From positions 1 through 64,000 of IMG/VR virus record IMGVR_UViG_3300042922_000265: a stretch of DNA of 64,000 bases; one strand, 5' to 3'. Each line of letters starts with the position of its first letter. Within the stretch, counting starts at the first letter, position 1. This stretch comes from a virus. The notes under the pieces are model-generated. The model was not told where the DNA came from. It did no database searches and saw only the letters and a program-made list of their open reading frames with translations. Below are positions 5,142 to 49,263 of the stretch, in pieces. The translations under genes were made by a program, and so were the position numbers.

Positions 5142-5776
5142 CAGACCAGCACCAGCTGGGCGGTCTCGCGCTTCTTGGCCTCGCGACGCTCCTTGGCCGC
5201 TGCCTTCTTGGCGGCCTCGAACGCGATCACGTCAGGGCGATCTGCCACGCGGGCCTTGGCTGCCTTGTAGCCTTCTTTGCCCAGGATGGACGGACCGCAG
5301 CTGGTGCCGAGGCCGATGTGTTTGCTGGTGGGGTCCTCCAGCTCGTGGCTGCAGTTCACGCAGTAGGCGTTGGCCACACCGTGGGCCGCGATGGCCTCGC
5401 CGGTCATCTTCATGTCGGCGAACAGGCCGGACATGGCACCGGGGACGTACTCCAGGCCACGCGCGGTGGTCAGCTTGGCATAGAAGCGCTGCCCGTCCTG
5501 GGTGCGCACAACCTTGAAGACCTGGCCCTGGTCGTTCTTGTAGAAGCCCTCGGCGCTGATGCGCGCACGCTGGACAACCTGCACGGGCAGGGTGGTCTGG
5601 GTGGGGCGCACCTTCTTGGCGGTGGCCTTGAGGGCGGAGATCAGCTCGGAGGCGCGGGCCTTGGTGATGCCTTCCTCAAGCTCCTCGGCGATGGAGTTGA
5701 TGCCAGCGAGGTCGATGAGACGCTCGGAGACGAGAGCTTCGATGTAGCGGATCTGGGGTGCGGTTGCGTTGCTCAT
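5141..5776 (-). CDS. DUF6011-like zinc-binding protein, leaderless
   Basis: CVNC..LEDP.S...G.G..C motif. Confidence 0.65.
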   Translation of the reverse strand: MSNATAPQIRYIEALVSERLIDLAGINSIAEELEEGITKARASELISALKATAKKVRPTQTTLPVQVVQRARISAEGFYKNDQGQVFKVVRTQDGQRFYAKLTTARGLEYVPGAMSGLFADMKMTGEAIAAHGVANAYCVNCSHELEDPTSKHIGLGTSCGPSILGKEGYKAAKARVADRPDVIAFEAAKKAAAKERREAKKRETAQLVLV

Positions 5777-15482: not shown

Positions 15483-15925
15483 TTCAGGCCCTTCTGGCCC
15501 AGGTAGTCGCCCACGAGGCCGTCCATGGACTTGCCGGTGTCGCCCTGGACGCGGGCCTGGGAGGCGGTGTTCTCCAGGGTTACGTCAGCCACGGCGGCCA
15601 GATTCCCGTACCCCGAGGTGGTCTGGTACGGGGAGCGCTGCGATTCCTGGCTGACACGAGCGTTGGTCTTGGCTCGCTCCAGCCCATCGTTGACGAACGG
15701 TGCGGGGCCACCATCCAGGGCCACGGCGGCGTTGGCCGTCATGACACAGTTACGCAGGGAGCGCAGGGCATCGGCCTTGTCTGCGCCGTCAGGCACGAGC
15801 TTGTTGAGCACCTTGAAGAACTCACGCGCGTGAGCGCGGATCGTCTCGTAGGTGGCCTCGGTCTGCTTGGTCGCAGGTGGGTGATAGCTGAACACGTGGT
15901 CCAGGTACTCGTCGGTGTACGGCAC
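15479..15925 (-). CDS. Hypothetical protein (Acb2/Tad1-like N-terminal motif)
   Basis: F.YHPP....YE.IR......A...L....MTANAAVA pattern. Confidence 0.5.
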   Translation of the reverse strand: MPYTDEYLDHVFSYHPPATKQTEATYETIRAHAREFFKVLNKLVPDGADKADALRSLRNCVMTANAAVALDGGPAPFVNDGLERAKTNARVSQESQRSPYQTTSGYGNLAAVADVTLENTASQARVQGDTGKSMDGLVGDYLGQKGLK

Positions 15926-15994
15926 TATGCCTCCTTGATCGTGGGTGGGTCTGTAAACATTCTACAGGGTATCAAGAGCGGTGCAAGCTCGTTG

Positions 15995-16067
15995 CTGGCC
16001 ACATAGGACTCGAACCTATACCTGACGCCTTAACAGGGCGTAGCACTGCCAATTGTGCTAGTGACCA
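15995..16067 (-). tRNA. tRNA-Asn(GUU)
   Basis: Cloverleaf; anticodon loop CUGUUAA. Confidence 0.9.
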
Positions 16068-16079
16068 ATGGTTATTGCG

Positions 16080-16151
16080 CTGCCCGTCCAGGACTCGAAC
16101 CTAGAATAGAGGATTCAGAATCCCCTGTGTTGCCGATTACACCAACAGGCA
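16080..16151 (-). tRNA. tRNA-Gln(CUG)
   Basis: Cloverleaf; anticodon loop UUCUGAA. Confidence 0.9.
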
Positions 16152-16179
16152 CTGTGAAGAAGCAGTAGACCCCGGAGGG

Positions 16180-16212
16180 CTACTGCTGTCGATTCATGGC
16201 GGTGGTGAACAT
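16180..16212 (-). CDS. Leaderless 10-aa peptide MFTTAMNRQQ (candidate attenuator leader)
   Basis: ATG 6 nt after a TACAGT -10; its end overlaps a terminator-like hairpin. Confidence 0.45.
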   Translation of the reverse strand: MFTTAMNRQQ

Positions 16213-16249
16213 GAGACGACTGTAGCACACTCCGGGGCCTCCCGGTCAA
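16213..16249 (-). promoter_or_regulatory. Promoter of the tRNA-Gln/Asn operon
   Basis: TTGACC-19 nt-TACAGT with extended TGn. Confidence 0.65.
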
Positions 16250-16252
16250 GCA

Positions 16253-16984
16253 TTACTTCTTGGAGTCGGCCAGCGCGCGACCCAGGCCCTTGCCGAACCC
16301 CTTGTTCTTGCTCTGGGGCTCCTGCGGTGGCAGCTCGTCGCCCATGGCCTCCAGACGGGCCTCCGGGGTGAAGGCAGCAGCTGCAGCCACAGCCACCGAG
16401 GCACCGCCGCGCAGCTGGCTGGTGTAGTTGCTCACCGAGGCGTACACCGACCGATTGGCGAGATGATCATGGCTGTTGAACTGCATCACCTGGTCCCGAT
16501 TGAGACCCAGGTTGCCACCGACCGCCTCAGCGTTGATGTTCGCGCCGATGAAGATGAACTTCCAGGAGTACTTCTCCTGGTGCTCGGTGATGAGTTCCTT
16601 GACCTTGGCCCAGGTCCACTCACGGCTGGAGTTCTCCCCGCCGTCGGTCATGATCAGGCAGATCACGGTGCCGGGGCGCTCGTCCTCGGGCAGCTTGGCC
16701 AGCTCCGCGCCGGTCTCGGTGATCAGCTTGCCGATACCGTCCAGCATGGCGGTCATGCCACGCGGGACCAGGCTGAGCTTGGGCACCTCGTCGATCGGCT
16801 TGTTGGTGTAGACGACCTCGTAGACGTCGTCGAACTGGGTCAGGGTGACGAGCGCGGACCCCGGCTCCTTCTTCTGGCCGTTGATCAGCTCGTCGAAGCC
16901 CTCTTGGGTGGCGCTGACCGAGGACTGCATGGAGCCCGATCGGTCAAGTACGGCGGCGATGAGGGTCTTGCTGCTGTCAGTCAC
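16253..16984 (-). CDS. vWA-domain protein
   Basis: MIDAS DRSGSM, TAMLDG and TDGGEN. Confidence 0.85.
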   Translation of the reverse strand: MTDSSKTLIAAVLDRSGSMQSSVSATQEGFDELINGQKKEPGSALVTLTQFDDVYEVVYTNKPIDEVPKLSLVPRGMTAMLDGIGKLITETGAELAKLPEDERPGTVICLIMTDGGENSSREWTWAKVKELITEHQEKYSWKFIFIGANINAEAVGGNLGLNRDQVMQFNSHDHLANRSVYASVSNYTSQLRGGASVAVAAAAAFTPEARLEAMGDELPPQEPQSKNKGFGKGLGRALADSKK

Positions 16985-43590: not shown

Positions 43591-43641
43591 ATGACGGGAG
43601 CGGGGACTATTTATAGCGGCGCATGGTCTCAGGATAACAGA

Positions 43642-49114: not shown

Positions 49115-49139
49115 CTCGTCGCGGAGGTTACTCCGGCGA

Positions 49140-49220
49140 CTAAAGAACGATGCGCTTATGCCACGGTCGATAGGGCGCTCGTTCGAGCATCCCTCGCGTG
49201 GTATCGGCAGTCGTAAACAT
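49140..49220 (-). CDS. Leaderless 26-aa peptide MFTTADTTRGMLERAPYRPWHKRIVL
   Basis: ATG 7 nt after a TATGGT -10. Confidence 0.45.
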   Translation of the reverse strand: MFTTADTTRGMLERAPYRPWHKRIVL

Positions 49221-49258
49221 GGGACCTACCATAGCACAGGTCCCATCGAGCTTGTCAA
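49219..49258 (-). promoter_or_regulatory. Promoter of the main RNA island
   Basis: TTGACA-19 nt-TATGGT; the -10 is flanked by an ATGGGACCT/AGGTCCCAT inverted repeat. Confidence 0.7.
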
Positions 49259-49263
49259 CACCT

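What the first reader, a model, noticed from the sequence alone, without database searches (positions are those of the whole stretch)
16157..16249. Candidate tRNA-sensing attenuator: leader MFTTAMNRQQ* upstream of tRNA-Gln(CUG) and tRNA-Asn
Seen: a promoter places an ATG at about +1. The 10-codon ORF ends AAT CGA CAG CAG TAG, and its GCAGUAG forms the 5' strand of a hairpin (GCAGUAG-CCCUCCGGGGU-CUACUGC) followed by UUCUU. The downstream genes are the tRNAs that read CAG and AAU. Established: leaderless sORF attenuators exist in mycobacteria, and Gln- and Asn-tRNA depend on transamidation there. Inference: ribosome stalling at CAG CAG occludes the hairpin and allows readthrough, so the tRNAs are made when their charged forms are scarce.
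Basis: partly seen in the sequence, partly recalled or inferred. Interest (0 to 1): 0.78.

Follow-up and report, generated by a model that had tools for sequence, protein, structure and literature searches.

The report
Codon-matched leader before phage tRNA genes
Between a promoter and this mycobacteriophage's glutamine and asparagine tRNA genes lies a ten-codon mini-gene that uses those codons and ends inside a hairpin; similar mini-genes precede its other tRNA clusters, so ribosomes probably gauge tRNA supply and tune tRNA gene output, a control I found in no paper.

Summary
On the minus strand lie a TTGACC box, an extended -10 (TGCTACAGT), an ATG 7 nt downstream, and a 10-codon ORF ending AAT CGA CAG CAG TAG. 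A -20.5 kcal/mol hairpin has the last Gln codon and the stop in its 5' arm. tRNA-Gln(CUG) follows after 10 nt, then tRNA-Asn(GUU).

The unit is conserved in every Ceeclamvirinae (cluster C) phage lineage I examined. The frame is kept through 3-nt indels, and two lineages carry extra Asn or Gln codons.

Two sister leaders of the same design exist in this genome. The one before the Ser/Leu tRNA cluster has Ser or Leu at 9 of 13 codons, and relatives differ from it only by synonymous changes. The promoter type occurs four times in 167 kb, always before tRNA or small-RNA units.

The best reading is a leaderless leader-peptide sensor: a ribosome on the last five codons prevents the hairpin from forming.

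Not shown: the transcription start, translation, termination (the U-tract is weak and not conserved), and the direction of the response.

No paper I could search describes this. Earlier unchecked notes from this scan report the same design in other phage lineages. It is a new variant of ribosome-mediated attenuation. Interest is 0.75.

The parts
16244..16249 (-). -35-like box TTGACC
   Evidence: Read. It is T-GAC in all relatives. It belongs to the TTGACN-N15-16-TGNTANNNT pattern found only 4 times in the genome.
16219..16227 (-). Extended -10 element TGCTACAGT
   Evidence: Invariant in 9 of 9 distinct phage sequences. The same element type precedes nine leaderless long ORFs.
16180..16212 (-). 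Leaderless 10-codon sORF (Met-Phe-Thr-Thr-Ala-Met-Asn-Arg-Gln-Gln-stop). The predicted TSS is the A of the ATG at 16212.
   Evidence: The frame is kept in lineages with 9, 10 and 11 codons. The ATG is invariant. No TSS or translation data exist.
16183..16194 (-). Invariant candidate sensing codons AAT CGA CAG CAG
   Evidence: They are 100% identical in all relatives. AAT is 14% of Asn codons and CGA is 7% of Arg codons in long ORFs. A ribosome with any of them in the A site abolishes the hairpin in simulation.
16162..16186 (-). Hairpin whose 5' arm holds the last G of the first CAG, the second CAG and the TAG stop
   Evidence: Leader fold -20.5 kcal/mol, z -3.9. All cells are paired in 9 sequences; 9 of 10 pairs never vary and one varies C-G to U-G. 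The hairpin persists in the fold of the whole precursor.
16152..16161 (-). Pyrimidine-rich tail UUCUUCACAG between the hairpin and the tRNA
   Evidence: It has only 4 U in the first 8 nt. It is variable and U-poorer in relatives. The terminator scan did not call it.
16079..16151 (-). tRNA-Gln(CUG), which reads CAG
   Evidence: ARAGORN. Rfam tRNA, 54 bits.
15994..16067 (-). tRNA-Asn(GUU), which reads AAC and AAU
   Evidence: ARAGORN. Rfam tRNA, 60.1 bits.
49115..49263 (-). Sister leader L2 before the main tRNA array: TTGACA, extended -10, leaderless 26-codon sORF (49220-49140), hairpin 49140-49118, then tRNA-Pro
   Evidence: Its first five residues match those of the Gln/Asn leader through synonymous codons. 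It is 96-97% identical in two Myrnavirus phages.

Best explanation
This is a leaderless leader-peptide sensor at the head of a two-tRNA transcription unit. It is one of three paralogous units that head the phage's tRNA operons.

Proposed mechanism:
1. Host RNA polymerase starts at the A of the ATG. (Inferred from promoter geometry.)
2. A 70S ribosome translates the ten codons. (Inferred.)
3. The last five codons, Asn AAU, rare Arg CGA, Gln CAG CAG and UAG, lie in or just before the 5' arm of a stable hairpin that ends 10 nt before tRNA-Gln. (Shown.)
4. While a ribosome dwells on these codons, the hairpin cannot form. (Shown by simulation only.)
5. Polymerase then runs on into tRNA-Gln(CUG) and tRNA-Asn(GUU). 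With no ribosome there, the hairpin forms and, with its pyrimidine-rich tail, pauses or terminates transcription. (Inferred, and the weakest step.)
6. So slow decoding of CAG or AAU raises output of the phage tRNAs that read those codons. Slow decoding could come from scarce or uncharged host tRNA-Gln or tRNA-Asn, for instance through limited GatCAB or nuclease attack. (Inferred.)
For: Anatomy:
- Anatomy and fold are confirmed.

Promoter and leaderless start:
- TTGACN-N15-16-TGNTANNNT occurs 4 times in 167 kb against 0.27 expected. All four are on the coding strand and precede tRNA or small-RNA units.
- All 17 instances of an extended -10 followed by ATG or GTG lie on the coding strand. Nine of them open ORFs of 63-231 aa.
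- A 5' AUG or GUG suffices for translation in mycobacteria (PMC4633059).

Conservation:
- The -10, the ATG, the last five codons and both stem arms are invariant in nine distinct Ceeclamvirinae sequences.
- Codons 2-6, the loop and the tail vary.
- The gene upstream of the unit differs between genera.

Reading frame:
- The sORF has 9, 10 or 11 codons depending on lineage.
- At least five indels across the three leader families are all multiples of 3.

Codon match, tested with composition-controlled shuffles:
- Asn+Gln: 3 of 9 codons here (p = 0.04), 4 of 9 in Phabba (p = 0.003), 5 of 10 in Bxz1-type phages (p = 0.0006).
- The sister leader before tRNA-Ser and four tRNA-Leu has Ser or Leu at 9 of 13 codons (p = 0.002) and no Asn or Gln.
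- The Gln/Asn leader has no Ser or Leu.

Selection on amino-acid identity:
- The Ser/Leu leaders of BeanWater and Lukilu differ at 5 codons (7 nt). All five differences are synonymous, including a TCG-to-AGC switch, and there are two in-frame indels.
- Phabba and Myrna change Arg to Leu in that leader.

Ribosome footprint:
- In simulation the hairpin core survives a ribosome at codons 2-6 and is lost at codons 7-11. That boundary coincides with the boundary between variable and invariant codons.

Rare CGA:
- CGA makes up 5 of 7 Arg codons in the three leaders, against 7% in long ORFs (p = 4e-5).
- It is the third codon before the stop in both short leaders.
Against: - There is no experimental TSS, translation or 3'-end data.
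- The hairpin shows no compensatory change: 9 of 10 pairs never vary.
- The tail has 4 U in 8 nt here and about 3 in Bxz1-type phages. The sister leaders have almost no U-tract, and their hairpins end 3-5 nt before the tRNA.
- The consensus scan calls no terminator here. Mycobacterial RNA polymerase required a U-tract in vitro, with NusG helping only at weak ones (PMC3993855).
- No mutually exclusive antiterminator fold exists.
- A tightly coupled ribosome would block the hairpin whether or not it stalls, so the sign and dynamic range of the response are open.
- Enrichment in this phage's own leader is marginal (p = 0.04).
- Most Ser codons of the sister leader are UCN, which the phage's tRNA-Ser(GCU) cannot read.
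- The 26-codon leader of the main array shows no specific match. The Bxz1 leader before tRNA-Pro contains Ser and Leu codons.
- The -35 spacing of 18-19 nt is atypical.
- All relatives belong to one subfamily, so the independent events are few.
Confidence: 0.5

Rival explanations
1. The sensor is the same but its output differs. The ribosome-controlled hairpin does not terminate transcription. It acts on the precursor instead: it gates RNase P or RNase E access to the tRNA 5' end only 3-10 nt away, or sets precursor stability, or works through Rho or NusG-dependent pausing.
For: - The hairpins of all three leaders end 3-10 nt before the first tRNA and lack real U-tracts.
- Mycobacterial RNA polymerase needs a U-tract for intrinsic termination (PMC3993855).
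- In M. tuberculosis, premature termination is mostly tied to Rho and translated uORFs (10.1101/2022.06.01.494293).
Against: - I know of no precedent for ribosome-gated RNase P access.
- tRNA sequence is structured and makes a poor Rho substrate.
- The phage's other strong hairpins at gene ends also carry only 4-5 U in 8 nt, so weak tails may be the local norm for terminators.
Confidence: 0.2
2. The sORF is not a sensor. The unit is a constitutive promoter with a structured 5' leader. The hairpin insulates tRNA folding, protects the 5' end, or ends read-through from the upstream vWA-like gene. The sORF and its codon content are incidental.
For: - The hairpin shows no covariation.
- Enrichment in the window's own leader is only p = 0.04.
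- Rare-codon richness is what non-coding sequence would show anyway.
- There is no terminator between the upstream gene's stop (16253) and the hairpin.
Against: - The frame is kept through at least five 3-nt indels.
- The ATG is invariant at a fixed distance from the -10.
- The Ser/Leu leader's changes are all synonymous, including a TCG-to-AGC switch.
- Amino acids partition cleanly between the leaders.
- Two lineages gained extra Asn or Gln codons independently.
Confidence: 0.15
3. The sensor works with the opposite sign, as a translation-capacity coupler. Only a ribosome that keeps pace with polymerase reaches the last codons in time to block the hairpin. Good decoding of CAG and AAU then gives read-through, and poor decoding lets the hairpin form first.
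For: - The geometry fits. When polymerase reaches the tail, a fully coupled ribosome would be at about codons 9-10 (reasoning).
- Extra Gln or Asn codons in relatives lie at codons 4-7, where a stalled ribosome leaves the hairpin core intact.
Against: - This would be positive feedback with no evident benefit.
- The invariant sensing codons lie exactly where stalling blocks the hairpin.
- The rare CGA at the third codon before the stop looks like a built-in dwell site over the stem.
Confidence: 0.1
4. The inverted repeat is a DNA operator for a dimeric phage or host regulator that blocks the promoter just upstream. It is not an RNA hairpin.
For: - Both 7-bp arms are sequence-invariant, with no covariation.
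- The repeat is a perfect palindrome at +27 to +51.
Against: - The repeat is unique in the 167-kb genome.
- The sister leaders have unrelated hairpins at the same position. In Lukilu-type phages the Ser/Leu hairpin was replaced by a different sequence that still pairs.
- The inner CC/GG pairing is kept while loop bases change.
- The half-site spacing of 18 bp centre to centre is awkward for a dimer.
Confidence: 0.03

Closest known systems
Classical leader-peptide transcription attenuators of enterobacterial amino-acid and synthetase operons (trpL, hisL, leuL, thrL, pheL, pheST leader); reviewed in PMC1183508
   Same: A short translated ORF in the 5' leader carries tandem codons cognate to what the operon supplies. 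Ribosome position decides whether a hairpin forms ahead of the first gene.
   Different: The genes controlled are tRNA genes of a phage, not biosynthetic or synthetase genes. The start is leaderless, with no Shine-Dalgarno sequence. There is a single hairpin with no 1:2/2:3/3:4 alternatives. The U-tract is weak. The leader carries two amino acids, matching a two-tRNA unit.
E. coli pyrBI-type attenuator (from my own knowledge): a leader ORF runs into a single terminator hairpin, and a closely following ribosome blocks it
   Same: A one-hairpin design in which the leader ORF overlaps the 5' arm, so occlusion by the ribosome is the whole switch.
   Different: In pyrBI the signal is UTP-sensitive polymerase pausing, not codon-specific decoding speed. 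It has a canonical U-tract.
Mycobacterial polycysteine leaderless sORF attenuators, the 'Cys ribulon' (Canestrari et al., 10.1101/834739)
   Same: The host genus is the same. Both have a leaderless sORF with consecutive codons for the sensed amino acid, and a stalled ribosome opens an RNA duplex.
   Different: [quoted passage not shown] Here the next genes are tRNAs with no ribosome-binding site, so the output must be transcriptional or act on processing.
Codon-matched leaders before tRNA operons noted earlier in this scan in other phages (e1-5362210, e1-5341205, e1-4038497; AI notes, not publications)
   Same: The concept is the same: a tiny ORF written in the amino acids of the tRNAs downstream, followed by a hairpin.
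   Different: The phage lineages and hosts differ, and there is no sequence similarity. I did not verify those notes.

Membership tests
Leader-peptide transcription attenuator (trp/his/leu type) | Short ORF with a usable start in the 5' leader | tested here: met
   A 10-codon ORF starts at an ATG 7 nt after an extended -10. The frame is conserved in 9-, 10- and 11-codon versions. Translation itself was not measured.
Leader-peptide transcription attenuator (trp/his/leu type) | Regulatory codons cognate to the controlled product, enriched or in tandem | tested here: met
   CAG CAG and AAU precede tRNA-Gln(CUG) and tRNA-Asn(GUU). Shuffle p = 0.04 here, 0.003 in Phabba and 0.0006 in Bxz1. The sister leader has Ser or Leu at 9 of 13 codons, p = 0.002.
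Leader-peptide transcription attenuator (trp/his/leu type) | Intrinsic terminator (GC-rich hairpin plus U-tract) before the first gene | tested here: inconclusive
   The hairpin is present; the 61-nt leader folds at -20.5 kcal/mol. The tail has only 4 U in 8 nt. The scan did not call it, and tails in relatives are poorer.
Leader-peptide transcription attenuator (trp/his/leu type) | Mutually exclusive antiterminator structure | tested here: not met
   The MFE, centroid and consensus folds show only the one hairpin. Masking the ribosome footprint yields no competing helix of note.
Leader-peptide transcription attenuator (trp/his/leu type) | Controls amino-acid biosynthesis or aminoacyl-tRNA synthetase genes | tested here: not met
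   The genes downstream are two tRNAs, followed by a separate promoter for the next protein gene.
Mycobacterial leaderless sORF attenuator (Cys ribulon) | Transcript begins at the start codon | tested here: inconclusive
   The promoter geometry and nine leaderless long ORFs of the same design fit this. No 5'-end data exist.
Mycobacterial leaderless sORF attenuator (Cys ribulon) | [quoted passage not shown] | tested here: not met
   The next gene is a tRNA 10 nt after the hairpin, so there is no ribosome-binding site.
Canonical intrinsic terminator | At least 5 U within 8 nt after a GC-rich stem | tested here: not met
   The tail is UUCUUCAC, with 4 U in 8.
T-box or other curated cis-regulatory RNA (Rfam 15) | Match to a covariance model | tested here: not met
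   Only the tRNAs match, even with E-values allowed up to 10, at this leader and at both sister leaders.

The most novel reading that the evidence does not exclude
Cluster C mycobacteriophages run all their tRNA operons under ribosome-operated, codon-specific feedback that serves as a counter-defence sensor. Each leader samples codons read by host tRNAs that are liable to be depleted or cleaved: CAG and AAU depend on GatCAB, and UCN Ser and Leu codons are read by tRNAs reported as VapC-type nuclease targets (PMC10264068). Stalling on those codons then releases the phage's nuclease-resistant replacement tRNAs. The shared UAG stops may add a second input from the phage's own CUA-anticodon tRNA.
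Probability: 0.15. Interest if true: 0.9.

Novelty: new variant of a known kind. Interest (0 to 1): 0.75.

Why it matters
Why phages carry tRNA genes, and when they use them, is a long-standing question. Codon compensation and evasion of tRNA-cleaving defences are the current ideas. I found no description of leader-peptide or ribosome-mediated control of tRNA genes in any organism.

If these leaders work as proposed, the phage measures decoding speed at particular codons and answers with the matching tRNAs. That would make the function of phage tRNAs directly testable.

The system is convenient for experiments. Bxz1-type phages number in the hundreds, grow on M. smegmatis mc2 155, and carry the same invariant element. 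It would also extend attenuation, so far known for protein-coding operons, to RNA genes. And it would give a second natural use of leaderless sORFs in mycobacteria.

Tried and rejected
- More distant relatives:
  - An exact 16-mer scan of viral contigs returned only cluster C phages plus chance hits.
  - A looser palindrome scan gave 118 loci and none related.
- Rhodococcus phage Trina, whose tRNA-Asn is similar, has no comparable leader.
- Rfam holds no family for any of the three leaders.
- Covariation: the stem never varies, so neither the pair counts nor RNAalifold can support or reject the fold. RNAalifold's extra helix between the -10 region and CGAC lies upstream of the predicted start, and I set it aside.
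- Rare-codon bias of the leaders (p = 0.0001-0.002 for the two sister leaders) is rejected as evidence of design. Non-coding sequence would look the same. Only the CGA excess survives a uniform-codon null.
- An 11-codon ORF starting at 15960, after tRNA-Asn, is rejected. Its ATG is not conserved, and the conserved element there is a TAGNNT -10 box.
- A 5-codon ORF with AAA before tRNA-Lys(UUU) is not conserved in Alice or Myrna. I list it only in passing.
- The 44-aa TTG ORF at 16115-16249 runs across tRNA-Gln and is spurious.

Full report
**1. What is there.**

The window is the first 64 kb of a 167,373-bp phage record with terminal repeats. It is about 75% identical to Bxz1-, Myrna- and Phabba-type mycobacteriophages of the subfamily Ceeclamvirinae, known as cluster C.

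On the minus strand, a vWA-like gene ends at 16253. The following elements come next:
- TTGACC at 16249-16244.
- An extended -10, TGCTACAGT, at 16227-16219.
- An ATG at 16212, whose A lies 7 nt after the -10.
- A ten-codon ORF (Met-Phe-Thr-Thr-Ala-Met-Asn-Arg-Gln-Gln) with its TAG at 16182-16180.
- A hairpin at 16186-16162. Its 5' arm holds the last G of the first CAG, the second CAG and the stop codon. It has a 7-bp outer stem, a 3-bp inner stem, a UCCG loop and one bulged U.
- A tail, UUCUUCACAG.
- tRNA-Gln(CUG) at 16151-16079 and tRNA-Asn(GUU) at 16067-15994.

The 61-nt leader folds at -20.5 kcal/mol, with z = -3.9, and none of 200 shuffles fold as well. The hairpin survives in a fold of the whole precursor.

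I add two qualifications. The -35 to -10 spacer is 19 nt. And the simple consensus scan flags neither a promoter nor a terminator here.

**2. Is the promoter real, and is the ATG at +1?**

The composite pattern TTGACN, 15-16 nt, TGNTANNNT occurs exactly four times in the 167-kb genome, against 0.27 expected. All four lie on the coding strand, and all precede tRNA or small-RNA units.

More generally, an extended -10 followed 5-8 nt later by ATG or GTG occurs 17 times, always on the coding strand. Nine of these ATGs open ORFs of 63-231 aa with no room for a Shine-Dalgarno sequence. Leaderless expression is therefore routine for this phage, as it is for its host (PMC4633059). The start site remains an inference.

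**3. Conservation.**

I compared nine distinct sequences from both genera of the subfamily.
- Invariant: the extended -10, the ATG, the sixteen bases covering Asn-Arg-Gln-Gln-stop, and the 3' stem arm.
- Variable: codons 2-6, the loop and the tail.
- The gene upstream differs between genera, so the conserved module begins at the -35 box.

The ORF length varies by lineage:
- Ten codons in Phabba and Myrna, with a second Asn codon.
- Nine codons in ScoobyDoobyDoo.
- Eleven codons in Bxz1-type phages, with two further CAG codons.

All indels are multiples of three. The peptide's N-terminal half is not conserved, so the peptide itself is unlikely to be the product that matters. The stem offers no covariation: 9 of 10 pairs never vary. 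This says nothing for or against the fold.

**4. Sister leaders.**

The genome holds 35 tRNA genes in separate minus-strand clusters. Each main cluster is headed by the same promoter type and a leaderless ORF that begins Met-Phe-Thr and ends in TAG.

*The Ser/Leu leader.* It precedes tRNA-Ser(GCU) and four tRNA-Leu genes, at genome 107058-106953, outside the window.
- It has 14 codons, of which four are Leu and five are Ser. It has no Asn or Gln.
- Conversely, the Gln/Asn leader has no Ser or Leu.
- It is present in all cluster C lineages I examined.
- BeanWater and Lukilu differ at five codons. All five differences are synonymous, including a TCG-to-AGC switch between the two Ser codon boxes, and there are two in-frame single-codon indels.
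- Phabba and Myrna turn an Arg codon into a further Leu codon.
- In Lukilu and Tonenili the hairpin next to the tRNA has been replaced by an unrelated sequence that still pairs.

*The main-array leader.* It lies at 49220-49140 and has 26 codons.
- It is strongly structured and is 96-97% identical in two Myrnavirus phages.
- Its amino-acid content is diverse and not specifically matched to its tRNAs. I do not count it as support.

**5. Statistics.**

Shuffling each leader's own bases controls for composition.
- Asn+Gln content: p = 0.04 here, 0.003 in Phabba and 0.0006 in Bxz1.
- Ser+Leu content of the sister leader: p = 0.002-0.009.

CGA is 7% of Arg codons in long ORFs. In the three leaders it supplies 5 of 7 Arg codons, p = 4e-5, or p = 0.002 against a uniform 1/6. 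It sits at the third codon before the stop in both short leaders.

General rare-codon richness is not evidence, because non-coding sequence would show the same.

**6. Mechanism.**

I masked a 27-nt ribosome footprint at each A-site codon.
- The hairpin core stays fully formed with the ribosome at codons 2-6.
- It vanishes with AAU, CGA, CAG, CAG or UAG in the A site.
- This boundary coincides with the boundary between the variable and the invariant codons.

My reading is that a ribosome dwelling on the last five codons prevents the hairpin and lets transcription enter the tRNAs. With no ribosome, the hairpin forms and stops or pauses polymerase.

The weak link is termination:
- The tail has 4 U in 8 nt here and fewer in relatives.
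- The sister leaders' hairpins end 3-5 nt before their tRNAs with no U-tract.
- Mycobacterial polymerase needed a U-tract in vitro, with NusG helping at weak ones (PMC3993855).

On the other side, the phage's other strong end-of-gene hairpins also carry only 4-5 U in 8 nt.

An output through pausing, Rho or 5' processing is a live alternative. So is the reverse sign of the response.

**7. Comparison with what is known.**

The logic is that of leader-peptide attenuation. Three defining features are not met: an antiterminator alternative, a canonical terminator, and biosynthetic or synthetase target genes.

The mycobacterial Cys leaderless sORFs (10.1101/834739) share the leaderless sensing ORF. 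They act by unmasking a ribosome-binding site, which a tRNA gene lacks.

Rfam has nothing for any of the three leaders.

Five full-text searches found no paper that describes leader-peptide control of tRNA genes, in phages or elsewhere.

It gives a reason why these two tRNAs are kept as a pair.

A paper on cluster C1 phage tRNAs proposes that they replace host tRNAs cut by VapC-type nucleases. It notes that UCN-reading Ser tRNAs are targets, while the phage supplies Ser(GCU) (PMC10264068). This could explain why the Ser/Leu leader is written mostly in UCN codons. That link is speculation.

**8. Earlier notes of this scan.**

I found the sister leaders. A later look-up showed that other agents had reported the same design in a 202-kb phage, a 500-kb phage and phiCbK-like Caulobacter phages. 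Those notes are unchecked, share no sequence with this window, and did not enter my scoring.

**9. Verdict.**

The evidence for a conserved, translated, codon-matched leader is good. The termination step and the direction of the response are not shown.
- This is a new variant of a known kind.
- Confidence in the stated mechanism is 0.5. Confidence that the sORF is a functional codon-sensing leader of some kind is about 0.8, the sum of the main reading and the two rivals that keep the sensor.

Noticed in passing
G000:C1:106953-107058 (minus strand; L141:1654-1759): A sister leader precedes tRNA-Ser(GCU) and four tRNA-Leu genes. It has TTGACC, an extended -10 and a leaderless 14-codon ORF with five Ser and four Leu codons, drawn from four different codons for each amino acid. 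It ends in TAG, and two hairpins follow. It is conserved in all cluster C lineages I examined, with synonymous Ser changes.
   Followed up: yes
window 49115-49263 (minus strand): The leader of the main tRNA array has TTGACA, an extended -10 and a leaderless 26-codon ORF. A long internal helix lies within the ORF, and a hairpin starts at the last base of the TAG and ends 3 nt before tRNA-Pro. It is 96-97% identical in ScoobyDoobyDoo and Phabba, far above the genome average, so it may be a structured RNA in its own right. Bxz1 has a different GTG-started 23-codon leader at this position.
   Followed up: partly
whole genome G000; in the window at 5776, 42573: A second promoter class has a GTTCTAGCA-like motif directly upstream of an extended -10, then an ATG 6-8 nt later that opens ORFs of 63-231 aa starting Met-Ser. 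There are nine such leaderless genes, all on the minus strand.
   Followed up: no
window 15959-15986 (minus strand): A separate promoter, TTGCAC, 16 nt, TAGAAT, lies between tRNA-Asn and the next protein gene, which starts with GTG at 15925. Its -10 is conserved as TAGNNT in relatives. The two tRNAs therefore form a self-contained unit.
   Followed up: partly
G000:C1:105584-105655 and the stop codons of all three leaders: The phage and its relatives carry a tRNA with anticodon CUA, which would read UAG. All three leader ORFs end in TAG, although TAG ends only 24.5% of long ORFs (0.245 cubed is 0.015). A link between suppression and leader read-through is possible but was not tested.
   Followed up: no
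G000:C1:106774-106857 (minus strand): An aberrant class II tRNA lies between tRNA-Ser(GCU) and tRNA-Leu(CAG). ARAGORN finds it only at a relaxed threshold, as Ser(CGA) with a mismatched anticodon stem. Rfam's tRNA-Sec model gives 29 bits, below threshold.
   Followed up: partly
window 43607-43624 (minus strand): A five-codon ORF lies 6 nt after a TGTTATCCT element and ends AAA TAG. It sits 16 nt before tRNA-Lys(UUU), and AAA is only about 7% of Lys codons. It lies in a spacer created by an HNH endonuclease gene insertion. Alice and Myrna lack it, so it may be chance or a recent gain.
   Followed up: yes
G000:C1:106303-106340 (minus strand): This is the fourth promoter of the tRNA-leader class (TTGACA, 16 nt, TGCTACAGT). 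It is followed by GTG TAG rather than a leader ORF. It heads the stretch that contains the CUA-anticodon tRNA and repeated GC-rich hairpins.
   Followed up: no
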